From an uncultured Planctomycetales bacterium (lineage in GTDB: Bacteria > Omnitrophota > Gorgyraeia > Zapsychrales > JANLHA01), in NCBI GenBank assembly GCA_964595465.1, contig CAZQQI010000005.1:9562-73561 (forward strand): a stretch of 64,000 nucleotides of DNA, read 5' to 3'. The position numbers and the translations under genes were made by a program. Under the pieces are notes generated by a model that was not told where the DNA came from, made no database searches, and saw nothing but the letters and a program-made list of their open reading frames with translations. This document shows, piece by piece, positions 17,350 through 48,111 of this stretch; the first letter of the stretch is position 1, and every line of letters begins with the position of its first letter.

Positions 17350-17466
17350 CCAGAGGTGATGACAATTCGCATTGCTCATGCAGCCTCGCTGCGCAGTTTT
17401 TTCTAAATAATATTTCGGTAAACTGTTTTGCTTCGGAACGCGCTTGCTGAATGAACATCACTCTGG
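17350..17466 (+). repeat. Copy A of a ~110-nt repeated structured element (candidate sRNA or REP/ERIC-like intergenic repeat)
   Basis: About 80% identical over ~105 nt to 25871-25981 in the same orientation. The conserved core is ACAATTCGCA.TGCTCA...CCTCGCTGCGCAG...TTTGCTTCGGAAC.GCGCTTGCTGAATG. The terminal stem CCAGAG(G)TGATG / CATCACTCTGG differs from copy B but stays complementary. Confidence 0.6.
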
Positions 17467-17503
17467 ATCCCTGTCATTGCGGCCTGTTATTCAGGCCGCT
17501 TTT

Positions 17504-18703: not shown

Positions 18704-18711
18704 AATGAACA

Positions 18712-18860
18712 ATACTTTCGGGATCGGGTGCAATTCCCGGCTGGTAGTGACCCGGGGTCCATAAGATCCAGGGAAGCCTGCGAGCCTCTCCGGTATACGG
18801 CGGGGCTGATCAAGTGAAAATCTTGAGCCAATAGTGAGAGCCTAGATGGGAGAAAGTAGC
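18712..18860 (+). promoter_or_regulatory. FMN riboswitch (RFN element) aptamer
   Basis: The region matches the RFN consensus: CTTTCGGGATCGGGTGCAATTCCCGGCTGGTAGTGACCCGGGG...AGCC...GATGGGAGAAAG aligns with the B. subtilis/E. coli TTCGGGGCAGGGTGAAATTCCCGACCGGCGGTAGTAAAGC...GATGGGAGAAG. It lies upstream of ribBA. Confidence 0.9.
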
Positions 18861-18913
18861 CGACAAAATGTTTAACCGTGTCCGCGCTGTGGCGGACCGG
18901 GTCTGGCTAGAGT

Positions 18914-18948
18914 CTTCTCCTCCGAAAGTGTGTCGGAGGATTTTTTTT
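18914..18948 (+). terminator. Riboswitch expression-platform terminator (TCCTCCGA-AAGTGTG-TCGGAGGA followed by T8)
   Basis: An 8-bp stem plus TTTTTTTT is read directly, 44 nt upstream of the ribBA ATG. Confidence 0.8.
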
Positions 18949-18991
18949 GGATCAAACCAGCTATTAACAGTAACGAAAAAGAGAGACCAAC

Positions 18992-20209
18992 ATGTTCAGT
19001 CCCATCGAAGAGATTCTGGAAGAGTTGAAACAAGGCCGCATGATCGTTGTTATGGATGACGAAGGCCGTGAGAATGAAGGCGACCTGCTGATCGCTGCCG
19101 AACACGTCACACCTGATTCTATCAATTTTATGGCCCGTTACGCGCGGGGCTTGATCTGTGTGCCGATGGAGGCTGACCGCCTGAATGATCTGGGACTGCA
19201 TCCCATGAAAGATAACATTTTAAGTCATCAGCAGCATTGCATGAGCAACACCGGCTGGGCGATCTCTGTGGATGCGGCAAAAGGCATTACCACCGGCATC
19301 TCTGCGTATGACCGGTATTATACCGTTAAGGTCCTGATCGACGAAAAGACCCGTCCGAGTGATCTGGAAACCCCGGGACATCTGTTTCCTTTACAGGCCC
19401 GCCGCGGCGGAACTCTGGTCCGTGCGGGACATACCGAGGCTTCGGTCGATCTGATGAAGGCCGCCGGGTTATATCCCGCCGGTGTGATCTGTGAGATTAT
19501 GAATGACGACGGAACGATGGCGCGTACCGATGATGTTCAGACATTCGCCAAGACCCATAATCTTAAGATCTGTTCAATCGCCTCGCTGATCGAATACCGC
19601 CGTAAGAACGAGCATATGGTCCGCCGGGTGGTTGAAGTCAATATCCCGACCGAGTTCGGGGATTTCACCATGCTCGGTTATGAGACCAATCTCGATGACA
19701 TGATTCATCTGGCCCTGGTCAAGGGCGATGTTGATACCACGGTTCCGGAATTGGTCCGTGTTCAGTCCGAATGTCTGACCGGTGATGTGTTCGGGTCTCT
19801 GCGCTGTGACTGCCGGCATCAGCTTGAAGCTTCAATGAAGACGATCAGTGACGAAGGCCGTGGAGTTCTGCTGTACATGCGTCAGGAAGGCCGGGGGATC
19901 GGTCTGTTGAACAAGCTTAAGGCCTACACCCTGCAGGATGACGGCATGGACACCGTTGAGGCCAATGAGGCTTTAGGATTCGGCGCGGATTTAAGAGATT
20001 ACGGCATCGGCGCGCAGATTTTGGCGGATCTCGGCGTCAAGCAGATCCGTTTGCTGACCAATAATCCGCGCAAGATCGTAGGCCTGGAGGGTTACGGCCT
20101 GGAGATTTCCGAGAGGGTTCCTCTGCATGTTGAACCGACCACGCATAATCAGAACTACCTGCAGACCAAGAAAGAAAAACTGGGCCATCTGCTGGATTTT
20201 TTAAAATAA
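18992..20209 (+). CDS. ribBA: Bifunctional 3,4-dihydroxy-2-butanone-4-phosphate synthase / GTP cyclohydrolase II
   Basis: 405 aa with an N-terminal DHBP synthase domain (RENEGDL) and a C-terminal GTP cyclohydrolase II domain carrying the zinc cysteines CLTGD...C.C. Confidence 0.95.
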
Positions 20210-20227
20210 ATTTGTTTGGAGACGGTT

Positions 20228-20683
20228 ATGGTCAAGCAGCAGACAACAGGGCAGTCCGCGGGCACCTACGTGATCGCGGTCTCCCGGTTTAATGAGTTTA
20301 TTACCCGCCGCCTGCTCGACGGCTGTGTGGCGGAGCTGAGCAAAAAACGGATTCCCAAAAAAAATATTAAAGTGGTCTGGGTCCCCGGCGCCTTTGAACT
20401 GCCGCAGACGGCTCAGCACTGGGCGCGCAAGCGTTCGGTCGCTGCGGTGATCGCCATCGGCTGTGTGATTCGGGGAGAGACCTATCATTTTGAACTTGTC
20501 GCCGAAAACACGGCGCGCGGATTGATGCGTGTCGGCCTGGATACCCGCAAGCCGGTCATTTTCGGCGTGATCACCACCGAGACCGTGGAGCAGGCCTACA
20601 AGCGTTCTGGAGACGGGGACGAACATAAGGGGCAGGAGGCAGCCCAGGCGGCGCTGGACATGGTCCGCGTCCTTAGCGCTTAG
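20228..20683 (+). CDS. ribH: 6,7-dimethyl-8-ribityllumazine synthase
   Basis: Collinear with E. coli RibH (...ARFNEFI...VWVPGAFELP...). The start was moved to ATG 20228 and has a GGAGACGG SD. Confidence 0.9.
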   Translation: MVKQQTTGQSAGTYVIAVSRFNEFITRRLLDGCVAELSKKRIPKKNIKVVWVPGAFELPQTAQHWARKRSVAAVIAIGCVIRGETYHFELVAENTARGLMRVGLDTRKPVIFGVITTETVEQAYKRSGDGDEHKGQEAAQAALDMVRVLSA

Positions 20684-20705
20684 CAAATTATCAGGAGACT
20701 CGATC

Positions 20706-21125
20706 ATGCGTAAACGTACACTTGCCCGGGAATATTCTCTGCACGTCTTGTATCAGCAGGACATTACCCGCATGGAGATTCAGATTCTGTTGGATCAGCT
20801 GTGGGAGAGAGAGGATGGCGGAGACACGGAAATTACCGAGTTCACCCGGCGTCTTGTCCTGGGTGTTCAGCAGAATGTGGCGTCGCTTGATGAAAAGATC
20901 TCTCAATATGCCACCAACTGGCAGTTAAAGCGTATGGCGATCATTGACCGCAATATTCTGCGTCTGGGTCTGTACGAACTGCTGTACGCCGAAGATATCC
21001 CACCCAAAGTTTCGATCAATGAAGCCGTTGAACTGGCCAAAAAATTCGGCGACCTGGAATCCAGTAAATTCGTCAACGGCATTCTCGATAAAATTCATAA
21101 GACCGAGATCGCGCAGTCATCGTGA
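20706..21125 (+). CDS. nusB: Transcription antitermination factor NusB
   Basis: 139 aa with NusB family features and the typical ribH-nusB linkage. Confidence 0.85.
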   Translation: MRKRTLAREYSLHVLYQQDITRMEIQILLDQLWEREDGGDTEITEFTRRLVLGVQQNVASLDEKISQYATNWQLKRMAIIDRNILRLGLYELLYAEDIPPKVSINEAVELAKKFGDLESSKFVNGILDKIHKTEIAQSS

Positions 21126-21973
21126 TTCAGCAACGCACCGCGGACCTTCATATTCATTCTTGTTTTTCGGACGGCACGGACACGCCTGAAGAGATTGTGG
21201 CCCTGGCCGCGGCCAAACAGCTGTCCGCTGTTGCCATTACGGATCATGATGCCATCGAAGGCCTCTCCGAGGCGAAGGCCGCCGGTGAGCGTCATCAGGT
21301 GGAGGTCCTGGCCGGGATCGAACTTTCCGCAGAAGCTCAAAAGCGTGAGATCCATATTCTGGGCTACGCTTTTGATCCGCAAAACCAGCAACTGCTGGGG
21401 CACCTTAACCGTTTCCGTGAGATCCGTCGGGAGCGGGGGCGGGAGATGATCAAGAAATTACGCGCCCTGGGATTAAGCCGGCTGGACTTTGACGAAATGG
21501 AACAGCAGCTCGGCGCGGATCAGGCCTTAGGCCGGCCGCATGTCGCGGCCATGCTGGTGGAAAAAGGATATGTCAAGACTACGGCTGAGGCCTTTGAACG
21601 TTTTATCGGAGAAGGCGGCGAAGGGTATGTTCCGAAATTCAAACAGTCGCCGCGGGAGGCCATCCGCGTGATCCGGGATGCCGGCGGGGTCGCGGTCATG
21701 GCCCATCCGATCGTGACCGCGCGGGATGAACTCATTCCGGGATTTGCCGCAGACGGACTGCAGGGGCTGGAGGTCTATTACCCGCGCAGTTCTCCGGCGG
21801 TGATCCGCTATTATGAACAGCTGGCGGACAAGTATGATCTGATCAGGACCGGCGGGTCCGATGCTCATGGCCGTTTTCGTAAGTACAGTCCCATCGGTAT
21901 GGTTCGTGTGGATTATCAGGCCGTGGAGCAGATCAAGCAGGCAGCGGAATACTCCGGCAGGAGGGAGTTATGA
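21122..21973 (+). CDS. PHP-domain metal-dependent phosphoesterase (TrpH/YciV-like), GTG start overlapping the nusB stop
   Basis: The PHP motif LHIHSCFSDGTDTPEEIV...AITDHD is present. The gene is embedded between nusB and ribD with 4-nt overlaps on both sides, so it is translationally coupled within the rib operon. Confidence 0.8.
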   Translation: MIQQRTADLHIHSCFSDGTDTPEEIVALAAAKQLSAVAITDHDAIEGLSEAKAAGERHQVEVLAGIELSAEAQKREIHILGYAFDPQNQQLLGHLNRFREIRRERGREMIKKLRALGLSRLDFDEMEQQLGADQALGRPHVAAMLVEKGYVKTTAEAFERFIGEGGEGYVPKFKQSPREAIRVIRDAGGVAVMAHPIVTARDELIPGFAADGLQGLEVYYPRSSPAVIRYYEQLADKYDLIRTGGSDAHGRFRKYSPIGMVRVDYQAVEQIKQAAEYSGRREL

Positions 21974-23088
21974 GTCGGGAGCAAGATATTCATTACATGC
22001 AGAGGGCCCTGCAATTAGCGCAAAAAGGCCGGGGTCTAACGTCGCCCAATCCCATGGTCGGCTGTGTGATCGTGAACGATCACCGTATTATTGCCGAGGG
22101 CTGGCATCGCCGCTGCGGCGGGGCGCATGCCGAGGCGGCCGCCCTCGAACTGGCCAAAGACGCCGCCCGCAATGCCGTAATGTACGTGACCCTGGAGCCC
22201 TGCTGTCATGAAGGCCGGACCCCGCCGTGTGTTGACCGGGTGATCGCAAGCGGTGTGCGCCGGGTCGTATTGGGGTCCTGGGATCCGAACCCGCTTATCT
22301 CCGGGCGCTCCATCCGCAAACTGCGCCGCGCCGGGATCACTGTGACCACCGGCGTTCTGCGCGGTCAGGCACAGGCCCTTAATACTGCGTTTAACAAATA
22401 TATTGTGACCCGGACGCCTTACGTCACGATCAAGTGCGCCCAGAGCCTCGACGGCAAGATCGCCACAGCCTCAGGTCATTCCCAATGGATTACCAGTCAG
22501 TCCATGCGCCGGGAGACCCGCCGGATGCGCGCGCGTTATGACGCCATCCTGGTCGGAGTCAATACTGTGATCAAAGATGATCCGGTCTTGAACCCTGTTC
22601 CCCGCAAGACGCCCTGGACCAAGGTCGTCGTCGACAGCCGTCTGCGGATCAGCCCGCGGGCGAAGATCTTTCAGAATTCGCGCGTCATCGTGGCGGCCGT
22701 TAAAGGCGTGTCAGCACGGAAGATCCGCCGTGTTGAGCGCGCGGGCGCAGAAGTTGTTCTGACACCGGTGCGGCGTAACCGGGTGGATCTAAAATGGCTG
22801 ATGCGCTATCTGGGTGAGCGTGAGATCACTGATCTGCTGATCGAAGGCGGCGGCCAGGTCATCGGCAGTGCCCTGCGTGATCGCGTTGTCGATGAGGCAA
22901 TGTTTGTGATCGCTCCCAAGATCATCGGGGAGGCCTCGGCCCTGGACCCGGTCGTGGGCCTGCGCACTGCTGACGTCAACCGCACGATCACCCTAGCAAC
23001 GAAAAATATTATTTCGCGAGGCGGGGATATTCTGATATCCGGAATGATACGCTACGCCAAAGATAAGGACATGAAGGAAAGGAGCTGA
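21970..23088 (+). CDS. ribD: Bifunctional diaminohydroxyphosphoribosylaminopyrimidine deaminase / 5-amino-6-(5-phosphoribosylamino)uracil reductase
   Basis: An N-terminal CMP/dCMP-type deaminase zinc motif (HAE...PCxxC-like: HAEAAAL...LEPCCH) and a C-terminal reductase domain are present. Confidence 0.9.
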   Translation: MSREQDIHYMQRALQLAQKGRGLTSPNPMVGCVIVNDHRIIAEGWHRRCGGAHAEAAALELAKDAARNAVMYVTLEPCCHEGRTPPCVDRVIASGVRRVVLGSWDPNPLISGRSIRKLRRAGITVTTGVLRGQAQALNTAFNKYIVTRTPYVTIKCAQSLDGKIATASGHSQWITSQSMRRETRRMRARYDAILVGVNTVIKDDPVLNPVPRKTPWTKVVVDSRLRISPRAKIFQNSRVIVAAVKGVSARKIRRVERAGAEVVLTPVRRNRVDLKWLMRYLGEREITDLLIEGGGQVIGSALRDRVVDEAMFVIAPKIIGEASALDPVVGLRTADVNRTITLATKNIISRGGDILISGMIRYAKDKDMKERS

Positions 23089-23089
23089 A

Positions 23090-23692
23090 ATGTTTTCAGG
23101 AATTGTTGAAGAGGTGGGGACGGTCAAGGCTATCGACCGCAAAAAGAATCTGATCACTATGGATATCAAAGCTGACCGTGTCCTGCGCGGGGCCAAGCTC
23201 GGTGACAGCATTTCGGTCAACGGCGTGTGCCTGACCATTACGCGTTTGAATAAAAGGGTGGCCCGTTTTGACCTGATGAAAGAGACCCTGGACTCCACCA
23301 CTCTGGGCTGTGTTAAGTCCGGTTCGGCCGTCAACCTCGAACGCGCGCTCAAGGTCAGCGACCGCATCGGCGGCCATTTTGTCTCCGGGCATGTTGACGG
23401 TATGGGGGTGCTCAAGAAAAAGGTCACCATGGAGAATTATGTGGAGTGGCAGATCGCGGCTGACCGCAAAATTTTAAAATATCTTGCTCCCAAGGCCTCT
23501 GTCACCGTCGACGGTGTCAGCCTGACCATCGGGTGGGTCAAGAAGTCGCGCAAGCTGTTCTCGATTTACTTGATCCCGCATACCCTGGAGGTCACTACCT
23601 TCGGCCGTAAGCGCGTCAATCAGAAATTGAATCTGGAAACGGACATTTTGGCCAAATATATTATCCACGCGCGGGATTATTCTGAGGTCTAA
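23090..23692 (+). CDS. ribE: Riboflavin synthase alpha chain
   Basis: Tandem lumazine-binding repeats (MFSGIVEEVG...GDSISVNGVCLT ... VSLTIG), 200 aa. Confidence 0.9.
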   Translation: MFSGIVEEVGTVKAIDRKKNLITMDIKADRVLRGAKLGDSISVNGVCLTITRLNKRVARFDLMKETLDSTTLGCVKSGSAVNLERALKVSDRIGGHFVSGHVDGMGVLKKKVTMENYVEWQIAADRKILKYLAPKASVTVDGVSLTIGWVKKSRKLFSIYLIPHTLEVTTFGRKRVNQKLNLETDILAKYIIHARDYSEV

Positions 23693-23706
23693 AGTTCGGA
23701 TAAAGC

Positions 23707-23735
23707 TTGGTCAGGGGTAAGATTTTCTTTATAAT
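23707..23735 (+). promoter_or_regulatory. Promoter TTGGTC-17-TATAAT upstream of the KS-like/fabG/fabZ2 operon
   Basis: TTGGTC at 23707-23712, a 17-bp spacer and TATAAT at 23730-23735 are read directly. Confidence 0.5.
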
Positions 23736-23805
23736 ACAGGAAGTAAAATCCTGCGTTAGAATTGAGATTTGTGTTTCGGACCGTGTGTCGATTTAAAGGA
23801 ATATT

Positions 23806-25041
23806 ATGAATAAGCGCATCGCTATCACAGGGTTAGGGGTCCTCGCCGGCAACGGCAAGGGCCGGGAAGAGTTTTGGCAAAGCCTGAAAGACGGGCGGCC
23901 GGGCTACCGTCCCATTACCTTGTTCGAAACCGACGAATTCAACGTCAATATCGCCGGAGAGATCCCGGAATTCGATGCCAAGGAATACATGGGCAAGAAG
24001 GGTCTGCGGACTCTGGACCGCAGTACCCGCATTCTGGTTTCAGCCAGTAAGCTGGCCATGGCCGAAAGCGGATACGGGATCACCGAAGAGAATACGGAAA
24101 TGACCGGCGTTTCGGTCGGCACCACCCTGGGCAGCCTCAAGAGCATTGCCGAATTCGACGAGATCACCCTGCGTGAAGGCCCGCGCTATGTTAACCCGTC
24201 TCATTTTCCTAATACCGTGATCAATTCTCCGGCCAGCCAGGTATCAATCTGGAATGATATCAAAGGTTTCTGCAATACCCTGGCCAGCGGGTTTACCACC
24301 AGCATTGACGCCATGCAGTACGCCGCGGATTTCATCGAATGGGACCGCGCCGAAATGGTCCTGGCCGGCGGGGTTGAGGAGCTCTGTCTGCAGACCTTTT
24401 ACGGGTTTCATGCCCTGCAGTTTATCTCCGGCTCTATAAATGGGGACGAGTTTATCAATTGCCCGTTCGACCGCCGGCGCAACGGCGTCACCTTCGGCGA
24501 AGGCGCCATGCTGATGGTCATGGAGGATTTTCAAAACGCGCGGGACCGCGGTGCCGACATCATGGCCGAGGTCGGCGGGTTCGGTTATGAATTCGACCCT
24601 TACCGTCTGCATAAATACAACCCCAAAGGCACCGGGATGAAGAACGCCATGCGCAAGGCCCTGGACGCAGCCGGGCTGACCATTGCAGACATTGACTGCA
24701 TTTTTGCTAACGCCAATTCCGCGCAAAACGCAGACCGCATTGAGGCGGCCGCGATTAAAGAGGTGTTCGGCGCTCAGGCAAAAAACGTTCCGGTGACAGC
24801 TACCAAATCTATGACCGGCGAATGCTACAGTGTCTCCGGGGCGTTGGCCGTGGCAGCGGCCCTGGGTGCGGTCCGGGAGGGGTTTATCCCTCCGACGATC
24901 AATTATCAGGAGCCGGACCCGGACTGCGATCTGAATATTATCGCCGACACAGTCAGTGATGCGGATTTAAAGAATGTTTTGATCAACAATTTTTCCCCCA
25001 GCGGGGCGAATGCCTGCATGGTCCTGCGGGCGGTTTCATAA
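23806..25041 (+). CDS. Beta-ketoacyl-ACP synthase (FabF/FabB) homologue with all three catalytic residues substituted; likely non-catalytic
   Basis: 411 aa, collinear with E. coli FabF over its full length. An ungapped alignment of the active-site segment places Phe where the nucleophilic Cys163 sits (KGFCNTLASGFTTS vs RGPSISIATACTSG). HGTST becomes ANANSA (His303 to Asn) and KSMTGH becomes KSMTGE (His340 to Glu). Lys335 is retained. Confidence 0.75.
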   Translation: MNKRIAITGLGVLAGNGKGREEFWQSLKDGRPGYRPITLFETDEFNVNIAGEIPEFDAKEYMGKKGLRTLDRSTRILVSASKLAMAESGYGITEENTEMTGVSVGTTLGSLKSIAEFDEITLREGPRYVNPSHFPNTVINSPASQVSIWNDIKGFCNTLASGFTTSIDAMQYAADFIEWDRAEMVLAGGVEELCLQTFYGFHALQFISGSINGDEFINCPFDRRRNGVTFGEGAMLMVMEDFQNARDRGADIMAEVGGFGYEFDPYRLHKYNPKGTGMKNAMRKALDAAGLTIADIDCIFANANSAQNADRIEAAAIKEVFGAQAKNVPVTATKSMTGECYSVSGALAVAAALGAVREGFIPPTINYQEPDPDCDLNIIADTVSDADLKNVLINNFSPSGANACMVLRAVS

Positions 25042-25089
25042 GTCGGGACAGACCCTGCTTATCTTCCACGGATTTTAAGGAGCAGTGTT

Positions 25090-25839
25090 ATGGCTGAATT
25101 CGAAGGAAAAGTTGCTTTAGTCACCGGAGGCTCGCGCGGTATCGGCAAGGCCATTGTGCGGATGCTTGCCCGGCAAGGCGCGTCCGTCGCGTTCAATTAT
25201 GTCCGCAGTCAGGGGCCGGCAGAAGAATTAGCCGCTGAGATCCGGGACAGCGGCGGGACGTGTTTGGTCCATCAGGTAGACGTGCAGGATTTCGACGCGG
25301 TCAAGGCCTGGACCGGCGAGGTCCAGCAGGAACTCGGCGGCCTGGATTTTGTCGTCAATAACGCCGGGATCACGGCCGACCGGCCGCTGATGATGATGAC
25401 TCCGGACGATTGGCATCGTGTGATCAATACCAATCTGACCGGCATGTTCCACACCACCCGCGCCTGTATCGTGCCTCTGCTCAAACAAAAGAGGGGGAAC
25501 GTGGTCAATATCTCTTCGGTCAGCGGTGTTATCGGCCTGCCGGGGCAGACCAATTATTCCGCGGCCAAAGGCGGCATGAACGCGTTCACCAAGGCCCTGG
25601 CACGGGAGACCGCGGCTTACGGCCTGCATGTCAACGCGGTCGCGCCCGGTTTTATCGAAACCGACATGATCCGCGACATGGACGAGGCCGCCCGGGAGAA
25701 GATCCTCAGCGAGATCCCTTTGTCGCGCCTGGGGTCGGCTGATGAGGTCGCCTCCTCTGTGCGTTTCCTCTTAAGTGAAGAATCGCATTACATTACCGGC
25801 CAGGTCCTGCAGATCGACGGCGGCCTGGCGATCCGTTAA
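25090..25839 (+). CDS. fabG: 3-oxoacyl-ACP reductase FabG (SDR family)
   Basis: The TGGSRGIG Rossmann motif, the catalytic YSAAKGG (YxxxK) and the NNAGI motif are present. Confidence 0.9.
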   Translation: MAEFEGKVALVTGGSRGIGKAIVRMLARQGASVAFNYVRSQGPAEELAAEIRDSGGTCLVHQVDVQDFDAVKAWTGEVQQELGGLDFVVNNAGITADRPLMMMTPDDWHRVINTNLTGMFHTTRACIVPLLKQKRGNVVNISSVSGVIGLPGQTNYSAAKGGMNAFTKALARETAAYGLHVNAVAPGFIETDMIRDMDEAAREKILSEIPLSRLGSADEVASSVRFLLSEESHYITGQVLQIDGGLAIR

Positions 25840-25870
25840 ATGAATAGTCAATCGAAAGATTTTTTTTATG

Positions 25871-25981
25871 AAGGGAGAACAATTCGCAATGCTCAGACAA
25901 CCTCGCTGCGCAGCTTATCTTAATAAACGATTTTTGTAACCTGCTTTGCTTCGGAACTGCGCTTGCTGAATGGTTCTCCTC
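25871..25981 (+). repeat. Copy B of the ~110-nt repeated structured element, in the fabG-fabZ2 intergenic region
   Basis: See copy A. The terminal stem GGGAGAAC / GTTCTCC replaces the GTGATG / CATCAC of copy A, a compensatory change. A conserved mini-ORF ML.QPRCA.. runs across the core. The ORF-track extension 25963-26022 of fabZ2 overlaps this element and is probably an artefact. Confidence 0.6.
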
Positions 25982-26022
25982 TCATTTCAACTTTAAACGA
26001 ATATTTATCCGTGAATGATCCG

Positions 26023-26472
26023 ATGCCTTTAACACTTCCTCTAACCAATCAGGACATCCGCGGGATCATCCCGCATCGCTATCCATTCCTGCTGATCGAC
26101 CGGGTGACCGGGCTCGTCCCTGGCGAGACGCTCACGGCAGTCAAGAATGTCAGCGTCAACGAACAGTATTTTACCGGACATTTCCCGGACGAAAAGATCA
26201 TGCCCGGGGTGTTGATCATTGAGGCCATGGCTCAGGCCGGCTGTGTTTTTTTCTATTATTCTCAAAAAGACCCCGGTCCGGCCTTGATGTATTATTTGGG
26301 CAAAGTAACGGCGCGCTTTCTTCAGCCTGTGCGTCCCGGCGATCAGCTGATGATCCGGGTCGAGGCCGTGCGCATGATGGCCAATGGCGCTATCCTCAAG
26401 GCGGAGGCCTCGGTCGACGGCGTCCGCGTGTCTGCTGTTGAATTCACCTTAAGTATCCGTCCTGCCTTATGA
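26023..26472 (+). CDS. Second 3-hydroxyacyl-ACP dehydratase (FabZ paralogue)
   Basis: The hot-dog motifs IPHRYPFLLIDRV...GHFP...PGVLIIEAMAQ are present. The start was set at ATG 26023 (MPLTLPL...). Confidence 0.8.
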   Translation: MPLTLPLTNQDIRGIIPHRYPFLLIDRVTGLVPGETLTAVKNVSVNEQYFTGHFPDEKIMPGVLIIEAMAQAGCVFFYYSQKDPGPALMYYLGKVTARFLQPVRPGDQLMIRVEAVRMMANGAILKAEASVDGVRVSAVEFTLSIRPAL

Positions 26473-27749
26473 CAGCGCAAGACCACTGCAGATCGTCTGC
26501 TCAGAACAGAGCCGCGGACTATGACGTTATTGTTGTCGGCGCCGGCGCGGCCGGTATGATGGCTGCCATCCGCGCCGCGCAGATCGGCGCGCGGGTTCTT
26601 TTGCTGGAAAAAGGCCCTCGTCTTGGGCGCAAGGTCCGCATCACGGGTAAGGGCCGCTGTAATGTCACCAATGCCTGCGCGCGTGAAGAATTCATTAAAC
26701 GTTTTTTTCACAACGGAGATTTTCTGCGCGACGCGTTCAAGGCCTTTTCCAACCGGGACCTCATGCATTTTTTCGAGCAGCAGGGGGTGGCGCTGAAGGT
26801 CGAACGTCAGCAGAGGGTGTTCCCTCAAAGCGGACGCGCCGCCGATGTGGCTGCGGCATTGGAGACTGCGCTGGCAAAAAACAGCGTCGAGGTGCGTACC
26901 AACATAGCGGTCCGTGATGTTCTGGTTGACGGCAGAGTGCGGGGTGTGGTCCTGGACGGAGGAGAACATATCTTTGCGTCCGCTGTGATGATCGCGACAG
27001 GTGGACTGAGTTATCCGGAAACCGGTTCCACGGGAGACGGCTTGCTCATGGCCCGCAAGAGCGGTCACCGTATAACTCCTACCGGACCGGCCTTAACGTC
27101 ATTAGAGACCCGGCAGAAATATGTTAAGGAGTGGGAAGGGCTGACGCTCAAAAATATTCGTCTGATATTTGTTCACGGGCGTAAGCGGCAGGAGAGCGGA
27201 ATGGGCGAGCTGCTCTTTACCGCCCGCGGGGTTTCCGGTCCGTTGGTGGTCAGCGCCAGCGGCCAGGCCGGAGAGTGGCTGGAGCGCGGGCAAGCGGTCA
27301 GGCTCGAGATAGATCTTAAGCCCGCCCTGAGCGCTGATGATCTGGACGCACGCGTCCTGCGCGACATTGACGCCGCACCCCGACAGCGCATGAAAAATTT
27401 CTGCAGAGGGCTTCTGCCGCAGCGTATGATCGCGCGGTTCTTAAAGGAAGCCGGCGTTGATACGGACCTGCCGGCCAATCAGCTGACCGCTCATCAGCGC
27501 AGGAATGTCATTTGTAAGCTGAAAGGTTTGAGTTTCGATATAAAAAGTGTCGCTCCGCTGAAAACCGCCATGGTCACCCGCGGAGGAATAAGCGTGAGGG
27601 ATGTTGATCCCCGGACTATGCAGTCGCGCCGCGTCCCGGGGCTTTATTTCGCCGGCGAGGTTCTGGATGTGGACGGCGACACCGGCGGGTTTAACCTGCA
27701 GGCCGCGTTCTCGACCGGATTCCTGGCCGGACAATCCGCCGTGGGATAA
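26469..27749 (+). CDS. HI0933-family FAD-dependent oxidoreductase (flavoprotein)
   Basis: The N-terminal dinucleotide-binding motif DVIVVGAGAAGMMAAIRAAQIGARVLLLEKG is present. The protein is 426 aa, consistent with the HI0933/YhiN-like family, and overlaps the fabZ2 stop by 4 nt. Confidence 0.7.
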   Translation: MTAQDHCRSSAQNRAADYDVIVVGAGAAGMMAAIRAAQIGARVLLLEKGPRLGRKVRITGKGRCNVTNACAREEFIKRFFHNGDFLRDAFKAFSNRDLMHFFEQQGVALKVERQQRVFPQSGRAADVAAALETALAKNSVEVRTNIAVRDVLVDGRVRGVVLDGGEHIFASAVMIATGGLSYPETGSTGDGLLMARKSGHRITPTGPALTSLETRQKYVKEWEGLTLKNIRLIFVHGRKRQESGMGELLFTARGVSGPLVVSASGQAGEWLERGQAVRLEIDLKPALSADDLDARVLRDIDAAPRQRMKNFCRGLLPQRMIARFLKEAGVDTDLPANQLTAHQRRNVICKLKGLSFDIKSVAPLKTAMVTRGGISVRDVDPRTMQSRRVPGLYFAGEVLDVDGDTGGFNLQAAFSTGFLAGQSAVG

Positions 27750-27815
27750 AGGTGACGGGCACTTTTATTTTATCCCTCATCTCTAATTCTGAAAATAAAA
27801 GTGTCCGTCACCTTT
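27748..27815. terminator. Very long hairpin (24-bp stem with one G-U pair, 21-nt loop) overlapping the flavoprotein stop codon; a terminator candidate, possibly bidirectional
   Basis: AAAGGTGACGGGCACTTTTATTTT (27748-27771) pairs with AAAATAAAAGTGTCCGTCACCTTT (27792-27815), and TTTATATT follows. Confidence 0.6.
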
Positions 27816-27837
27816 ATATTACTAAAGAAAGGTCCCT

Positions 27838-28185
27838 ATGACCGAACAACGCCAATACCCCCGCTTTCGTGTCAAGCTTCCGGTCACGATCGAATACGAC
27901 CGGGACGACGCATTTCAGCGCCTGACTTCGACGCTGGATGTCAGCGCCAGCGGAATCTGCGTGGTTTCGCCCGATCCTTTTGAGAAAGGCCAGTGCGTTC
28001 GGCTGATCATGCAGACCGACAAAGACCGTATCATCAGCCTGCCCGCCCATGTGATCTGGCAGCGCGAACGCCGCCTCAAAACCCGCACCGATTACCGGGT
28101 CGCCTTCAAACTCGTGGACATTATGGATGCTGAAGAGGTCGCCTTTGTCCGCACCATCAACCGCCAGCTGTATTCCTGCGAATAA
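27838..28185 (+). CDS. PilZ-domain protein (putative c-di-GMP receptor)
   Basis: PilZ motifs RQYPRFRV (RxxxR) and DVSASGI (D-x-S-x-x-G) are present in a 115-aa protein. Confidence 0.7.
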   Translation: MTEQRQYPRFRVKLPVTIEYDRDDAFQRLTSTLDVSASGICVVSPDPFEKGQCVRLIMQTDKDRIISLPAHVIWQRERRLKTRTDYRVAFKLVDIMDAEEVAFVRTINRQLYSCE

Positions 28186-28364
28186 TTGCATCTCGCATCT
28201 AGCATCTCGCAGCTTGAACTTGGCAGCTATCCACCATTCTCTATTTACGATTTACTATTTTCCAGACCCGAATACTAGCTGCTAAATGCGGGGAGCTAAC
28301 TGCAGGCTGCTATTTATCCCCTTTATCCTTGTCTTTGTCCAAAATTTTGTTAAGATACTGCCGT

Positions 28365-28388
28365 TCACAATTGTCTCACAATCTTCAC
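28365..28388 (+). promoter_or_regulatory. Direct repeats TCACAAT-N4-TCACAAT with 11-bp period, upstream of the Na/Pi cotransporter gene; a Pho-box-like candidate operator
   Basis: TCACAATTGTC TCACAATCTTC is read at 28365-28386. An 11-bp direct-repeat periodicity is the known architecture of OmpR/PhoB-family sites, and the downstream gene is a PhoU-domain Na/Pi cotransporter. The repeat sequence itself is not the E. coli CTGTCAT consensus. Confidence 0.3.
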
Positions 28389-28419
28389 GCAGTGTTCAAC
28401 ATCAAGGAAAGGATCGGCA

Positions 28420-30120
28420 GTGAGCGGAAACTTTATTTTTCTGATGATGGGCGGTCTCGGATTTTTCTTTTTCGGCATGCGCACCATGTCCGAAGGGCTG
28501 AAACAGGTTGCCGGAGAAAGGCTTAAGAACTTTCTGCACATGGTTACCAAGGTCCCTATTGTGGGCGTCGCTGTCGGCACTCTGGTGACCCTGCTGATCC
28601 AGTCTTCCAGCGCTACCACGGTCATGGTCGTCGGATTTGTCAGCGCCGGCCTGCTGGCGCTCAAACAGGCCATCAGCGTGATCATCGGTGCCAATATCGG
28701 GACCACCTTTACCGCCTGGCTGGTCTCGTCCATGTCCGTCCTTAAAGTTACCCAATATGCTCTGCCCGCCGTGGGAGTCGGATTTCTGCTGATGACTTTC
28801 GGCAGGGGCCGCAGGATGAAGTTTTGGGGTGAGGTCCTGTTGGGCTTTGGCATGCTCTTTGTCGGTCTGGGGTTAATGAAAGACGCCTTTGACCCTTTGA
28901 AAGACAGCCAGCAGCTTAAAGATGTCCTGGTCATGTTCGCTCATAACCCTATTTTAGGGATCCTGGTCGGGGCAGTATTCACTGTGCTGCTGCAGAGTTC
29001 TTCGGCCACCATTGCTATTGTGCAGGTTCTGGCGTTCAAAGGGCTGATCCCGTTTTCTGCCGCTATTCCGGTCATCCTCGGGGAAAACATCGGGACCACG
29101 ATCACCGCCCAGATGGCGGCCGCCGGGTCCAATGTCACCGCCCGCCGCGCCGCGATGTCGCATACTCTATTTAATGTGATCGGTGTGTCCTACATGTTGA
29201 TTTTTGTGTATTTCGGCTGGTATGAACGGCTGGTGGATTTTATCGTCCCCGGTAAGATTACCCTCACCAATGTTATGTTTCATATCGCGGTCGCGCATTC
29301 TGTATTTAATGTTTTCAACGCCCTGGTTTTTCTGCCGTTTATCGGCTGGCTGGAAACGGCTAGTGTTTTTCTCGTGCGCCAGCGTAAAGGGGAGGAAGAA
29401 CTCAAGCCCCAGTATCTCGACAAACATCTGCTGGAGACCCCGGCTGTGGCACTGGAGCAGGTGCGAAATGAAACCCTGTATATGCTCAGCGTGGCCAAAA
29501 AATCTGTGACCGCCGCGGTCCGGGGCTTTCTGCACAGCAATGAAGCCCTGCTGACCAAGGCTGTGAAATATGAAAATGCCACGGATAACCTGCAGTCTGA
29601 GATCACACAGTATGTGATTGATCTTTCCCAGCAGGAGCTGGCGCCGGAAGAATCCCAGGAGATCCCCGTTCTCCTGCATAATGTTAATGATGCCGAACGG
29701 ATCGGGGACCATGCCCGCAATATCGCCGAGATCGCCCGCAACAGGATCGATGAAAAGATCGTTTTTTCGGACACGGCCATCGTTGAGCTGAAAGATATGT
29801 GGGCACAACTGCAGGCCCTCCTCGACGGCACCGCGCGTGTCTTTCAGGGTCAGGATGCCCGCGGCGCGGAAAAACTCCTTGAGGTGGAAAACCGTATCAA
29901 TGCACTGCAGATCCGGTTAAAAGAGACCCATATTGAACGGCTCAACTGCGGGGCCTGTGATCTGAAAGCCAATTTTATTTTTTTGGATTTCATCGACAAC
30001 ATGGAAAAGATCGGCGATCACTTGACGAATATTGTGCAAAGTGTTATAGGTAAGATGCAGTGGCGCGTTTATCAAAAAGCCGATCCTTCGGCCCAGCCGG
30101 CCCAGGAATCGGCGAGCTGA
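28420..30120 (+). CDS. Na+/phosphate cotransporter (NptA family) with C-terminal PhoU-like domains; GTG start
   Basis: 566 aa with duplicated QSSSAT transporter motifs in the N-terminal half and PhoU-like helical repeats (...ERIGDHARNIAE..., ...EKIGDHLTNIVQ) in the C-terminal half. An SD AGGAAAGGA lies 7 nt upstream. Confidence 0.8.
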   Translation: MSGNFIFLMMGGLGFFFFGMRTMSEGLKQVAGERLKNFLHMVTKVPIVGVAVGTLVTLLIQSSSATTVMVVGFVSAGLLALKQAISVIIGANIGTTFTAWLVSSMSVLKVTQYALPAVGVGFLLMTFGRGRRMKFWGEVLLGFGMLFVGLGLMKDAFDPLKDSQQLKDVLVMFAHNPILGILVGAVFTVLLQSSSATIAIVQVLAFKGLIPFSAAIPVILGENIGTTITAQMAAAGSNVTARRAAMSHTLFNVIGVSYMLIFVYFGWYERLVDFIVPGKITLTNVMFHIAVAHSVFNVFNALVFLPFIGWLETASVFLVRQRKGEEELKPQYLDKHLLETPAVALEQVRNETLYMLSVAKKSVTAAVRGFLHSNEALLTKAVKYENATDNLQSEITQYVIDLSQQELAPEESQEIPVLLHNVNDAERIGDHARNIAEIARNRIDEKIVFSDTAIVELKDMWAQLQALLDGTARVFQGQDARGAEKLLEVENRINALQIRLKETHIERLNCGACDLKANFIFLDFIDNMEKIGDHLTNIVQSVIGKMQWRVYQKADPSAQPAQESAS

Positions 30121-30133
30121 CCATGGAGCGGAT

Positions 30134-30511
30134 ATGTCCGGAAAGATCATTTTGGCGGTCGACGATGACCCGACGACCCTGAAGCTGTTGAACGCCCGTT
30201 TTCGTGAAGACGGTCATGATATCCGCACCGCAGAGACCGCCGGTGACGCGATCCGCCAGGCTAAGGAGTGCCCTCCGGATATTGTCATCATGGACCTCCT
30301 CTTGCCGGATATGCCCGGCGAAGAGGCCGTAGTTGAACTTCTTCAGATGTTTCCTTCCCGTGAAATGACTATCATTTTTCTCTCCGGGATCCTTTTGGCT
30401 GAAGACGGCGAAGGGGTCGAATCCCAGCAGGTCCGCGTCAAAGATGAATTTTATCCGGCAGTGGGCAAGCCCGTCAATTTTGAGCGCTTGATGTCCGTTC
30501 TGAATATTTAA
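30134..30511 (+). CDS. Stand-alone response-regulator receiver domain protein
   Basis: The REC motifs ILAVDDD, the phospho-acceptor ...IVIMDLLLPD and a conserved Lys region are present, in 125 aa with no output domain. Confidence 0.8.
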   Translation: MSGKIILAVDDDPTTLKLLNARFREDGHDIRTAETAGDAIRQAKECPPDIVIMDLLLPDMPGEEAVVELLQMFPSREMTIIFLSGILLAEDGEGVESQQVRVKDEFYPAVGKPVNFERLMSVLNI

Positions 30512-30526
30512 TGTGAGGGAGGATCT

Positions 30527-31102
30527 ATGAGCTGTCAGGATCTGATCAAAGGGCGGCGCAGTGTCCGCAAATTCAAAGATACTTTGGTGAAAGATGAGGA
30601 GGTCGTCCAGCTTCTGGACGCCGCCCGCTGGGCTCCTTCCTGGATGAATACCCAGTGCTGGGAGTTCATTGTGGTCCGTGACGAAGACCTGATCCGTCAG
30701 GTCGTAGAGACCTTCAGCCCGGCCAATCCGTCACGTCCTTGTGCCGGCGAGGCTTCTGTCCTGCTGGTCGCGGCCGCCCGCCGGGATGCCGCGGGGATGG
30801 GGAAAGACGGGAGACCGTCAACCGAAATCCAGAATTGGTTTATGTTCGATCTGGGCGCGGCCGTGCAGAATATCAGTTTGGCCGCGTATGATATGGGCCT
30901 GGCCACGGTCGTTGTCGGTTCGCTTGACCATGCCCGCTGTGCGGAACTTTTGAAGGTTCCCGCTGATGTTCAGGTTGCCGCCGTTCTTCCGGTCGGCCGT
31001 CCCGCGCAGACTCCGGCTCCGAAACCGCGCAAGGATCTCGATGAGTTCGTCTCGGTCGATCATTACGGAAAGCGCTGGGCTTTAGGGGGAGAGGAAAAAT
31101 AA
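30527..31102 (+). CDS. Nitroreductase-family NAD(P)H-flavin oxidoreductase
   Basis: The N-terminal RRSVRKF motif typical of the nitroreductase family is present in a 191-aa protein. Confidence 0.8.
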   Translation: MSCQDLIKGRRSVRKFKDTLVKDEEVVQLLDAARWAPSWMNTQCWEFIVVRDEDLIRQVVETFSPANPSRPCAGEASVLLVAAARRDAAGMGKDGRPSTEIQNWFMFDLGAAVQNISLAAYDMGLATVVVGSLDHARCAELLKVPADVQVAAVLPVGRPAQTPAPKPRKDLDEFVSVDHYGKRWALGGEEK

Positions 31103-43241: not shown

Positions 43242-43251
43242 CGGGGAAAGT

Positions 43252-44184: not shown

Positions 44185-44199
44185 AAGGGAAGGCGGCTT

Positions 44200-44610: not shown

Positions 44611-44658
44611 ACCCGTTTTTCCATTTAACATCAATCACGCGCTGTCCACCGGATAGCC

Positions 44659-46371: not shown

Positions 46372-46373
46372 CC

Positions 46374-47843: not shown

Positions 47844-48111
47844 ACGTTTTCGTGGGTAAAGCAAAGGATAATGTGATATTTTGTATTTAATCGTTTCTGC
47901 TGGAATGGCGGTAAAAAAGATTGGGAGGGACGCGCAGAGCGAGTTCCGAACCGAACGATTTATGATAAAAACGTTCGGGGAGGCTGTTTGAGCGAACGCG
48001 TCCTTTCCAATCTTCATGAGCCATTCGGCTGCAAAATGGTACATAAAAGCAATATCGTATGCGTCATACCCATTGATTTTTTCAAAGAGCCGGAAAACAT
48101 AAGGGATCGTT

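What the first reader, a model, noticed from the sequence alone, without database searches (positions are those of the whole stretch)
23806..27749. Operon led by a KS (FabF-like) homologue lacking all three catalytic residues, followed by fabG, a second fabZ and an HI0933 flavoprotein
The 411-aa KS homologue aligns without gaps to E. coli FabF across the active-site segment, yet has Phe at the Cys163 position (..IKGFCNTLASGFTTS.. vs ..LRGPSISIATACTSG..), Asn for His303 (ANANSA vs NAHGTS) and Glu for His340 (KSMTGE vs KSMTGH). That excludes both condensation and malonyl decarboxylation. It therefore resembles a chain-length-factor or scaffold-type KS partner, not a working FabF. It is co-transcribed from its own TTGGTC-17-TATAAT promoter with a canonical FabG, a catalytically intact second FabZ and an HI0933-family FAD oxidoreductase. 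The housekeeping fabZ is already in the lpx cluster. There is no ACP, no active KS and no AT in the operon, so this is either a degenerate KS acting as a heterodimer partner for a FabF encoded elsewhere, or a small specialised acyl-chain modification module (ketoreduction, dehydration and flavin-dependent reduction or oxidation). The repeat element (copy B) sits inside the operon between fabG and fabZ2.
Basis: partly seen in the sequence, partly recalled or inferred. Interest (0 to 1): 0.65.

Follow-up and report, generated by a model that had tools for sequence, protein, structure and literature searches.

The report
Orphan dead ketosynthase with reductase and dehydratase
This uncultured Omnitrophota bacterium keeps a catalytically dead copy of the fatty-acid chain-extending enzyme next to a reductase and a dehydratase; it belongs to a family recently shown in anammox bacteria to work only as the silent half of a two-protein enzyme, but its active partner is not nearby.

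Summary
ORF 23806-25041 is a full-length KAS-II homologue with Phe, Asn and Glu in place of the Cys-His-His triad. It is followed by a FabG-type ketoreductase, a second intact FabZ and an HI0933 flavoprotein.

It is not an unclassified oddity. Its best solved relative (E 1e-111) is amxFabFmut of Brocadia fulgida, the dead subunit of a KS/chain-length-factor-like heterodimer (2026 preprint). In an NJ tree it falls inside that clade (200/200 bootstraps).

The window comes from a Candidatus Omnitrophota MAG. In related metagenome contigs, two of them Omnitrophota, the same family sits in full "ladderane-type" clusters: KSmut, KR, amxACP-like ACP, FabZ, active KS2, often KS3 and a desaturase-like flavoprotein. 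The window's lineage keeps only KSmut, KR and FabZ, fixed downstream of the riboflavin operon, with no ACP or active KS in about 73 kb.

The dead KS is strongly conserved. Conservation is highest in the helix-loop-helix segment that lines the partner's acyl tunnel in the anammox enzyme.

Most likely it is still a silent heterodimer partner of an unlinked active KS. That partner was not found. HI0933 is a lineage-specific neighbour, and the promoter is only a consensus match.

Moderate interest: a new variant of a known kind.

The parts
23707..23735 (+). Sigma-70-like promoter match (TTGGTC-17-TATAAT, or TGGTCA-16-TATAAT) in the 113-nt ribE-KS gap
   Evidence: 10/12 match and the best in 23000-28500, but the number of such sites is not above shuffles. 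Sequence read. Not conserved as an arrangement: ribE and the KS gene overlap in L001.
23806..25041 (+). Catalytically dead KAS-II paralogue (KSmut) of the amxFabFmut / CLF-like family. It has Phe163/Asn302/Lys334/Glu339 in place of Cys/His/Lys/His, and the invariant helix-loop-helix motif NPxxFPNTVIN at residues 130-140.
25090..25839 (+). FabG-family 3-ketoacyl-ACP reductase of the cluster type (TGGSRGIG cofactor motif, Ser-Tyr-Lys triad). An AAGGAG ribosome-binding site lies 8 nt upstream.
   Evidence: (TIGR01830 301 bits); 51-53% identical to cluster KRs against 43% to canonical FabGs.
25870..25972 (+). Copy B of a roughly 100-nt two-copy dispersed repeat (copy A at 17353-17452). It sits in the 183-nt fabG-fabZ2 gap, the slot occupied by the ACP gene in the sister full clusters.
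   Evidence: No Rfam match. No fold better than shuffles. No ACP remnant. Absent from loci of other genomes.
26023..26472 (+). Second FabZ-type 3-hydroxyacyl-ACP dehydratase with catalytic His and Glu present. The ORF opens at TTG 25963, but ATG 26023 is the likely start.
   Evidence: gene called as 149 aa in GCA_046542295.1; 41% identical to the lpx-cluster FabZ.
26469..27749 (+). HI0933 / aminoacetone-oxidase-family FAD protein. Its start overlaps the fabZ2 stop by 4 nt. It is a lineage-specific neighbour, not a conserved module member.
   Evidence: Absent after FabZ in L001, L006, L147 and the P0109 contig; two genes away in L003.
18710..23692 (+). Upstream context: FMN riboswitch (18710-18861) followed by ribBA-ribH-nusB-PHP-ribD-ribE. 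This block precedes the KSmut gene in five of the six rib-linked lineages examined; in the sixth (L004) ribE was not detected upstream.
   Evidence: RF00050, 85 bits.

Best explanation
**What it is.** The 411-aa protein is a non-catalytic paralogue of beta-ketoacyl-ACP synthase II. It belongs to the same family as anammox amxFabFmut. With its own ketoreductase and dehydratase, it is the surviving part of a 'ladderane-type' FAS-like gene cluster (KSmut, KR, amxACP-like ACP, FabZ, active KS2, often KS3 and a flavin desaturase-like protein). This Omnitrophota lineage has lost or relocated the ACP and KS2 genes.

**Proposed mechanism.**
- Shown for the anammox homologue and inferred here: KSmut folds as a normal thiolase-fold KS but cannot be acylated or decarboxylate malonyl-ACP.
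- It pairs with an active KS subunit. Its helix-loop-helix segment (Phe134, Thr137, Val138) forms part of the wall of the partner's acyl tunnel, and so stabilises the partner and sets chain-length preference.
- Inferred: the partner is an amxFabF2-like KS2 encoded elsewhere in the genome.
- Inferred: the adjacent KR and FabZ2 reduce and dehydrate the beta-ketoacyl product on an ACP that is also encoded elsewhere.
- HI0933 may supply a flavin-dependent reduction in this genome, but it is not part of the conserved module.
For: **Family assignment**
- The best PDB hit is 9S5H chain C at E 1.2e-111 and 377 bits, against 243 bits for the best FabF and 149 bits for the actinorhodin CLF.
- The preprint identifies that chain as amxFabFmut. 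It shows heterodimer-only activity, with Phe135/Thr138/Val139 lining the partner's tunnel.
- In the NJ tree, all dead KSs plus amxFabFmut form one clade (200/200). The rib-linked group is monophyletic (200/200). Its sister group is the cluster-type KSmut of L101, L115, L132 and L125 (140/200).

**Origin from a full cluster**
- In 80 metagenome loci, most active KS2 genes with enough flanking DNA have a dead KS (x-x-K-E/D) plus KR, ACP and FabZ beside them; exceptions include L097, L106 and L129. The sister loci have the order KSmut-KR-ACP-FabZ-KS2. That is the window's order minus ACP and KS2.
- KS2 best matches 9S5H_B (amxFabF2) at 489 bits. The cluster ACP best matches the anammox ACPs.
- The window's FabG is closer to the cluster KRs than to canonical FabGs.

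**Selection**
- KSmut is 62-67% identical across lineages in which the neighbouring RibE is 50-61% identical.
- Residues 101-140 are the most conserved stretch (0.84 against a mean of 0.65), and F134-P-N-T-V138 is invariant in 121 of 121 sequences.
- The motif is shared with amxFabFmut and the cluster-type KSmut, but not with FabF or KS2.

**Structure**
- The AlphaFold monomer is confident (pLDDT 87.8, TM 0.95 to B. subtilis FabF) except at residues 121-140.
- This parallels the disorder of that motif in the amxFabFmut homodimer crystal and its ordering in the heterodimer.
Against: - No active KS and no ACP were found in the 64-kb window or about 9 kb of flanks.
- None was found within 10 kb of the gene in L001, L147 or the P0109 contig, nor in the shorter flanks available for L003 and L006.
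- Two searches with KS2 queries listed 240 relatives. None lies on a contig whose length matches any contig carrying a rib-linked KSmut, including contigs of 1.2 Mb, 401 kb, 339 kb and 305 kb. This is weak negative evidence, because only the top 120 hits of each search are shown.
- Most KS2 genes seen with adequate flanks already have their own adjacent KSmut. A spare partner is therefore not obviously available.
- Heterodimer formation was not tested.
Confidence: 0.55

Rival explanations
1. KSmut pairs with the housekeeping FabF rather than with a dedicated amxFabF2-like KS. The mixed dimer would retune chain length, or provide FabH-independent initiation by malonyl-ACP decarboxylation, for bulk lipid or lipid A synthesis. 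KR and FabZ2 would then act on the ordinary AcpP.
For: - The dedicated ACP and KS2 genes are missing from the locus in all six rib-linked lineages examined.
- The module sits in a stable housekeeping synteny block: pgsA-pgpA, then rib, then KSmut-KR-FabZ, then ligA.
- The anammox heterodimer makes acetoacetyl-ACP from malonyl-ACP alone, which is an initiation-like activity.
Against: - No precedent was found for a dead KS of this family pairing with a canonical FabF.
- KSmut and KS2 are sister families, well separated from FabF (200/200). This suggests co-evolved interfaces.
- Whether this lineage has a canonical FabF at all is unknown. L120, which has both systems, keeps a dedicated KS2.
Confidence: 0.15
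2. KSmut no longer partners with any KS. It acts as a homodimeric, non-catalytic acyl-ACP-binding or scaffold protein for the adjacent KR and dehydratase. One possible role is channelling or buffering 3-keto/3-hydroxyacyl-ACP for lipid A or phospholipid synthesis.
For: - The co-retained set is KSmut plus FabZ (with KR in most lineages), without KS2 or ACP.
- Scalindua amxFabFmut does crystallise as a homodimer.
- The dead subunit still has a tunnel, which bound PEG in the crystal.
Against: - The most strongly conserved segment is precisely the helix-loop-helix that lines the partner's tunnel.
- That segment is disordered in the anammox homodimer, and homodimers are described there as electrostatically disfavoured.
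- The preprint's modelling does not predict preferential ACP binding at the mutant subunit's tunnel entrance.
- No activity of amxFabFmut alone was detected.
Confidence: 0.15
3. The gene is a decaying, functionless remnant of a lost cluster (a pseudogene in the making).
For: Loss of all three catalytic residues, and loss of the neighbouring ACP and KS2 genes.
Against: - The reading frame is intact and full length in more than 120 clusters at 60-74% identity, with 109 positions at least 97% conserved.
- The protein is more conserved than the adjacent riboflavin synthase.
- The fold is predicted with high confidence.
- The same substitutions occur in the functional anammox protein.
Confidence: 0.03
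4. The protein is an active condensing enzyme, and the alignment misplaces the catalytic residues.
For: None beyond overall FabF similarity of 31-35% identity.
Against: - Gap-free alignments from three methods agree on the positions.
- The flanking motifs (GxTTS, ANANS, KSMTGE) are in register with TACxxG, NAHGTS and KSMTGH.
- No Cys or Ser occupies the nucleophile position in any of the 121 sequences.
Confidence: 0.01

Closest known systems
amxFabFmut of anammox bacteria (Brocadia fulgida, PDB 9S5H/9S5I chain C; KustE3606 in the Kuenenia 'Cluster I'). It is the silent subunit of the amxFabF2/amxFabFmut KS/CLF-like heterodimer (bioRxiv 10.64898/2026.05.19.726425).
   Same: - E 1.2e-111 and about 45% identity over the full length.
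- Same clade, 200/200.
- Same triad replacement pattern: hydrophobic residue, then Asn, Lys, Glu.
- Same tunnel-lining motif, F-P-N-T-V.
- Same closest structural neighbour, B. subtilis FabF 4LS5.
   Different: - Phe rather than Val or Thr at the Cys position.
- No adjacent amxFabF2, amxACP, phytoene-desaturase homologue or B12-radical-SAM gene.
- Sits after a riboflavin operon, with a KR.
- The host is an Omnitrophota MAG with no evidence of ladderane lipids.
'Ladderane-type' FAS-like clusters of non-anammox bacteria (the antiSMASH 'ladderane' class; reported in Omnitrophota, Desulfobacterota and others, bioRxiv 10.1101/2022.12.20.521206). Seen here as KR-KSmut-ACP-FabZ-KS2-KS3-PDH-like in L066, L101, L115, L132 and about 70 other loci.
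   Same: - KSmut, KR and FabZ2 of the window are homologous to the corresponding cluster genes: 48-58%, 51-53% and 40-42% identity respectively.
- The gene order matches the sister clusters.
   Different: - The window's version lacks ACP, KS2, KS3 and the desaturase-like flavoprotein.
- It is fixed in a housekeeping synteny block.
- The product of the full clusters is itself unknown.
Type II polyketide synthase chain-length factor (KS-beta), for example actinorhodin ActI-ORF2 (PDB 1TQY chain B) and the ishigamide CLF Iga12 (named in the preprint).
   Same: A KS-fold protein without the catalytic Cys that works as the obligatory partner of an active KS and shapes its acyl tunnel.
   Different: - Much weaker similarity: 149 bits for 1TQY_B, less than to any FabF.
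- No Gln at the Cys position, so no KSQ-type decarboxylase role.
- Not translationally coupled to a KS-alpha.
- Apparently an independent, FabF-derived origin.
FabF (beta-ketoacyl-ACP synthase II, TIGR03150)
   Same: Same fold and length, 31-35% identity, TM 0.95 to B. subtilis FabF.
   Different: - Below the family cutoff (338 against 494 bits).
- Triad absent.
- A different helix-loop-helix motif.

Membership tests
amxFabFmut-like dead KS (silent subunit of KS/CLF-like FAS heterodimers) | Full-length KAS-II (thiolase) fold | tested here: met
   Pfam PF00109 and PF02801 are matched end to end. AlphaFold pLDDT is 87.8 and TM is 0.95 to 4LS5.
amxFabFmut-like dead KS (silent subunit of KS/CLF-like FAS heterodimers) | Cys-His-His triad replaced (non-nucleophile, then Asn/Ser/Ala/Cys, then Glu) with the Lys335 equivalent retained | tested here: met
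   The query has F163, N302, K334 and E339; 9S5H_C has V, N, K and E. The pattern is conserved in 121 of 121 close homologues.
amxFabFmut-like dead KS (silent subunit of KS/CLF-like FAS heterodimers) | Phylogenetic placement with amxFabFmut, apart from FabF and from the active KS2/amxFabF2 group | tested here: met
   NJ tree with 200 bootstraps: dead-KS clade including 9S5H_C 200/200; KS2 clade 200/200. NJ only; no ML tree was made.
amxFabFmut-like dead KS (silent subunit of KS/CLF-like FAS heterodimers) | Helix-loop-helix residues that line the partner's tunnel (Phe135, Thr138, Val139 in B. fulgida) | tested here: met
   F134, T137 and V138 are invariant. Their role is taken from the preprint.
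amxFabFmut-like dead KS (silent subunit of KS/CLF-like FAS heterodimers) | Active KS partner (amxFabF2-like) encoded next to it | tested here: not met
   No KS with a Cys-His-His triad in the window plus flanks, nor in the available flanks (up to 10 kb) of the gene in five relatives. It is present in most of the cluster-type loci.
amxFabFmut-like dead KS (silent subunit of KS/CLF-like FAS heterodimers) | Forms a heterodimer that is active only as a pair | not testable with these tools
   Needs multimer prediction or biochemistry, and the partner is unidentified.
amxFabFmut-like dead KS (silent subunit of KS/CLF-like FAS heterodimers) | Dedicated amxACP-like carrier protein in the cluster | tested here: not met
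   No ACP in the window at E<=1e-3 with E. coli ACP, and no convincing hit at E<=1 with five cluster ACPs (best E 0.002, judged spurious but not checked). No remnant in the 25840-26022 gap.
Type II PKS chain-length factor (KS-beta) | Gln (or another decarboxylation-competent residue) at the KS Cys position | tested here: not met
   Phe163.
Type II PKS chain-length factor (KS-beta) | Adjacent, usually translationally coupled KS-alpha gene | tested here: not met
Type II PKS chain-length factor (KS-beta) | Closer in sequence to known CLFs than to FabF | tested here: not met
   1TQY_B scores 149 bits against 243 bits for FabF.
FabF (TIGR03150 equivalog) | Score above the curated cutoff, and a Cys-His-His triad | tested here: not met
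   338 bits against a 493.75-bit cutoff. The triad is absent.
FabG (TIGR01830) for ORF 25090-25839 | Score above the cutoff; SDR cofactor and catalytic motifs | tested here: met
   301.3 bits against a 297.75-bit cutoff. It is, however, nearer to cluster-type KRs than to housekeeping FabGs.
FabZ (NF000582/TIGR01750) for ORF 26023-26472 | Score above the cutoff; catalytic His and Glu | tested here: met
   NF000582: 152.5 bits against a 113-bit cutoff. TIGR01750: 148.9 bits, just under its 155-bit cutoff. The His and Glu motifs were read.

The most novel reading that the evidence does not exclude
In this Omnitrophota lineage the dead KS has been emancipated from its dedicated KS2 and ACP. It would then work with the housekeeping machinery in one of two ways:
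- as a modifier subunit of the ordinary FabF, giving FabH-independent initiation or chain-length retuning; or
- as a non-catalytic acyl-ACP-docking scaffold that, with its KR and FabZ2 (and the HI0933 flavoprotein in some genomes), supplies 3-hydroxyacyl-ACP for lipid A.

Either would be a new role for a CLF-like protein in primary lipid metabolism.
Probability: 0.2. Interest if true: 0.7.

Novelty: new variant of a known kind. Interest (0 to 1): 0.42.

Why it matters
- **An orphan CLF-like protein.** Dead ketosynthases are usually understood only as partners of an adjacent active KS. Here a whole Omnitrophota clade conserves such a protein more strongly than its riboflavin synthase neighbour, while the dedicated KS and ACP genes are gone from the locus. 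If the partner proves to be unlinked, or to be the housekeeping FabF, the known range of KS/CLF-type regulation would extend into primary lipid metabolism.
- **Implications for the anammox cluster.** The anammox 'Cluster I' FAS components (ACP, FabFmut, FabF2) have clear homologues at about 45-50% identity in many non-anammox loci, including Omnitrophota. That bears on the claim that this cluster is specific to ladderane producers. It also offers non-anammox systems in which to study what these enzymes make.
- **Annotation.** These proteins are currently labelled 'beta-ketoacyl-ACP synthase family protein' or 'synthase II', and could be miscounted as evidence of a working FabF.

Tried and rejected
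1. **Exact look-ups.** Look-ups of the window's KS and of P0001 returned nothing. P0002 worked and identified GCA_046542295.1.
2. **Genome-contig scan.** The scan with the single protein used over-specific peptide patterns. It returned mostly ordinary FabFs at 30-35% identity and only four real relatives, L003-L006.
3. **Locating the active partner.**
No contig was shared. This is inconclusive, because only 120 hits are listed per search.
   - Walking out of the window with edge proteins added about 6.5 kb upstream and about 3 kb downstream. Neither stretch has a KS or ACP.
   - GC content was compared between an orphan KS2 contig from the same metagenome (L129, 41.1%) and L001 (42.3%). They are compatible, but this is not evidence.
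4. **ACP remnant.** I looked for a degraded ACP gene in the fabG-fabZ2 gap and found none.
5. **The repeat.** It was tested as a structured RNA. There is no Rfam hit at E<=1, no covariation with only two copies, and fold energies no better than shuffles.
6. **Interface charge.** Simple net-charge counts of the helix-loop-helix did not reproduce the positive surface the preprint reports even for the anammox protein, so I dropped the test.
7. **Fusion proteins.** The roughly 800-aa KS plus dead-KS fusions turned out to be only 27-34% identical to the query. They illustrate the pairing principle but are not close relatives.
8. **Literature.** The Omnitrophota genomics paper says nothing on lipid synthesis genes.
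9. **Fold search.** Foldseek against the PDB could not return 9S5H, presumably because its library stops at April 2026.

Full report

Yes. The + strand carries these ORFs:

| Coordinates | Length | Identity |
|---|---|---|
| 23806-25041 | 411 aa | KS homologue |
| 25090-25839 | 249 aa | FabG-type reductase |
| 25963/26023-26472 | 169/149 aa | FabZ |
| 26469-27749 | 426 aa | HI0933 flavoprotein |

- The KS homologue matches both Pfam ketoacyl-synthase domains end to end. It scores only 338 bits on the FabF equivalog model, whose cutoff is 493.75 bits.
- Gap-free alignments to B. subtilis and E. coli FabF put Phe163 at the nucleophilic Cys, Asn302 at the first His and Glu339 at the second His. 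The Lys335 equivalent is kept.
- FabG and FabZ2 carry their catalytic motifs.
- A tblastn screen finds no other KS, ACP, FabH or FabD in the 64 kb. It finds the first fabZ inside lpxD-lpxC-fabZ-lpxA-lpxI.
- Three details need correction. FabZ2 probably starts at ATG 26023. The promoter is a 10/12 consensus match in a region where such matches are not enriched. The intergenic repeat is genuine, with copies at 17353-17452 and 25870-25972.

**2. Source organism**

Window positions 13806-35041 are 99.986% identical to contig JBKHBP010000006.1 of GCA_046542295.1, a Candidatus Omnitrophota MAG.

**3. What the KS homologue is**

- Its best solved relative by a wide margin is PDB 9S5H chain C (E 1.2e-111, 377 bits). 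The best FabF scores 243 bits and the actinorhodin CLF 149 bits.
- A 2026 preprint identifies 9S5H/9S5I as the Brocadia fulgida amxFabF2/amxFabFmut heterodimer. It reports the following:
  - The mutant subunit lacks the triad (Val/Thr, Asn, Glu).
  - Neither subunit is active alone.
  - Together they decarboxylate and condense malonyl-ACP.
  - Phe135, Thr138 and Val139 of the mutant's helix-loop-helix line the active subunit's acyl tunnel and influence chain-length preference.
- The window protein has the same F-P-N-T-V motif at residues 134-138.
- A scan of 1.84 billion representative proteins shows a large family of KS homologues with an x-x-K-E pattern in place of C-H-K-H.
- An NJ tree (200 bootstraps) gives these results:
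  - All such dead KSs collected here group with amxFabFmut (200/200).
  - The dead-KS clade and the active 'KS2' clade together are set apart from the FabFs (200/200).
  - The window protein lies in a rib-linked subclade (200/200).

**4. Where the module comes from**

- A Candidatus Omnitrophota contig (L005) carries a dead KS immediately upstream of an active KS.
- A 1.26-Mb Omnitrophica contig (L066) carries KR-KSmut-ACP-FabZ-KS2-KS3 followed by a phytoene-desaturase-like protein.
- A metagenome scan with a KS2 alignment returned 80 loci. Most with adequate flanks have the same set of genes; L097, L106 and L129 are exceptions.
- KS2 best matches amxFabF2 (9S5H_B, 489 bits), and the cluster ACP best matches the anammox ACPs. 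These are therefore homologues of the anammox 'Cluster I' FAS core. They correspond to what antiSMASH labels 'ladderane' clusters in Omnitrophota and other non-anammox phyla.
- The sister group of the rib-linked KSmut (L101, L115, L132, L125; 53-58% identity; 140/200 support) has the order KSmut-KR-ACP-FabZ-KS2. The window has KSmut-KR-[183-nt gap with the repeat]-FabZ-[HI0933]. That is the same order with ACP and KS2 missing.
- The window's FabG is 51-53% identical to the cluster KRs. It is only 43% identical to E. coli FabG and to the canonical FabG of L120, a locus that has both systems.
- No trace of an ACP gene remains in the gap.

**5. Conservation of the reduced module**

- ribE-KSmut-KR-FabZ recurs in the same wider synteny (pgsA-pgpA, then rib, then the module, then acylphosphatase-ligA-xerC) in L001 (1.17-Mb contig), L006, L147 (401-kb contig, with mobile genes inserted before FabZ), the 142-kb P0109 contig, and L148.
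- L003 lacks the KR. L004 is cut just after the start of its KR gene, and ribE was not detected upstream of its KSmut.
- HI0933 follows FabZ only in the window's own genome and lies two genes away in L003. It is not a conserved member.
- The ribE-KS junction ranges from a 4-nt overlap (L001) to a 475-nt gap (L147). A dedicated promoter is therefore not a conserved feature, and co-transcription with the FMN-riboswitch-controlled rib operon is possible.

**6. Is the dead KS functional?**

- More than 120 sequence clusters at 60-74% identity keep the full length. In a 121-sequence alignment, 109 positions are at least 97% conserved.
- Between lineages KSmut is 62-67% identical, while the neighbouring riboflavin synthase is 50-61% identical.
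- The most conserved 40 residues are 101-140 (0.84 against a mean of 0.65). NPxxFPNTVIN is essentially invariant.
- The motif is shared with the cluster-type KSmut and amxFabFmut, but not with FabF (SPFFVPxxIxN) or KS2.
- AlphaFold predicts a confident KAS-II fold (pLDDT 87.8, pTM 0.91, TM 0.95 to 4LS5). Confidence collapses only at residues 121-140. This echoes the disorder of this motif in the amxFabFmut homodimer and its ordering in the heterodimer. The argument is suggestive, not proof.

**7. Mechanism and what remains open**

- The best-supported reading is that KSmut remains the silent, tunnel-shaping subunit of a KS heterodimer, and that KR and FabZ2 process the product.
- The weak point is the partner. 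No active KS or ACP lies in about 73 kb around the gene, nor in the available flanks of the gene (up to 10 kb) in five relatives.
- None of 240 listed KS2 relatives lies on a contig that also carries a rib-linked KSmut.
- I therefore give 0.55 to an unlinked, KS2-type partner, 0.15 to pairing with the housekeeping FabF, and 0.15 to a partner-independent scaffold role. Decay or hidden activity get almost nothing.
- A full-genome gene inventory would settle most of this in minutes, but these tools could not do it.

**8. Comparison and verdict**

- The protein passes every sequence-level test for the amxFabFmut-like family. It fails the two context tests (adjacent active KS, dedicated ACP).
- It fails the tests for type II PKS CLF (no Gln, no KS-alpha, weaker similarity than to FabF) and for FabF.
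- It is best filed as a new variant of a known kind: an orphaned CLF-like FAS subunit with its KR and DH.
- Interest is moderate, for three reasons. The family and its mechanism were just described. 'Ladderane-type' clusters in Omnitrophota are already noted in the literature. What is new is a conserved orphan arrangement, together with the breadth of non-anammox homologues of the supposedly ladderane-specific FAS core.

Noticed in passing
window 17353-17452 and 25870-25972: A two-copy dispersed repeat of about 100 nt (about 82% identical). Both copies are on the + strand, just downstream of a gene (a BaxI-like gene and fabG). Copy A is followed by a clean intrinsic terminator at about 17478-17505. 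There is no Rfam match, no fold better than shuffles, and no copy in loci from other genomes. Its function is unknown.
   Followed up: partly
L066 7348-14527; L101 7192-11206; L115, L132, L125 and about 70 other loci (L067-L146): Metagenome contigs, at least two of them labelled Omnitrophota/Omnitrophica (L005, L066), carry full clusters: KR, dead KS, ACP, FabZ, KS2, often KS3 and a phytoene-desaturase-like flavoprotein. KS2, the dead KS and the ACP best match anammox amxFabF2, amxFabFmut and amxACP in the PDB. The anammox 'Cluster I' FAS core is therefore not confined to ladderane producers.
   Followed up: partly
L137 3792-14184: Two complete or near-complete sets of the cluster lie in tandem: KSmut-KR-ACP-DH-KS2, then KSmut-FabZ-KS2-ACP-PDH-KS3. 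One genome can thus hold paralogous dead-KS/KS2 pairs.
   Followed up: no
L120 6819-21200: A 647-kb contig has the special cluster and, 5 kb downstream, a canonical fabH-fabD-fabG-acpP-fabF operon (ACP 76% identical to E. coli AcpP). In that organism the special cluster is additional to FAS II, not a replacement.
   Followed up: partly
L129 907-2127: An active KS2-type gene with no dead KS, ACP or FabZ within about 1 kb on either side. It comes from the same metagenome as the rib-linked locus L001 and has similar GC (41% against 42%). It may be an example of an unlinked partner, but the contig is only 3.8 kb.
   Followed up: partly
proteins P0123, P0126, P0128, P0130 and others (about 800 aa): Single polypeptides fuse an N-terminal active KS (C-H-K-H) to a C-terminal dead KS (x-x-K-E/D). 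Several carry the NPxxFPNTV motif. The named members come from a Moorella MAG ('chain length factor') and a Helarchaeota MAG. They are only 27-34% identical to the window protein.
   Followed up: partly
window 18710-18861 and 18992-23692: An FMN riboswitch (85 bits) precedes a rib operon that has nusB and a PHP-domain gene embedded between ribH and ribD. This unusual order is conserved in the related genomes.
   Followed up: no
window residues 121-140 of ORF 23806-25041 (nt about 24166-24225): The segment with the highest sequence conservation in the family is the only part of the AlphaFold monomer with pLDDT below 65. This is consistent with a segment that orders only on dimerisation.
   Followed up: partly
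window 43231-59187; repeat family D1 at 46701, 50966 and 55176: A division/cell-wall (dcw) gene cluster, inferred from the Mur ligase, D-Ala-D-Ala ligase and FtsA Pfam hits in L149; most of its ORFs were not individually annotated. The three-copy 30-nt 'repeat' encodes a TGTNGKTT-like nucleotide-binding loop, presumably of paralogous Mur ligases, and is not a mobile element.
   Followed up: no
window 27838-28185 and 28420-31102: Between FabZ2/HI0933 and the conserved downstream block (acylphosphatase, ligA), this genome carries extra genes: a PilZ-domain protein, a Na/Pi cotransporter-PhoU fusion, a response regulator and a nitroreductase. Relatives L001, L147 and the P0109 contig lack them at this position, so the spot is variable.
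   Followed up: no
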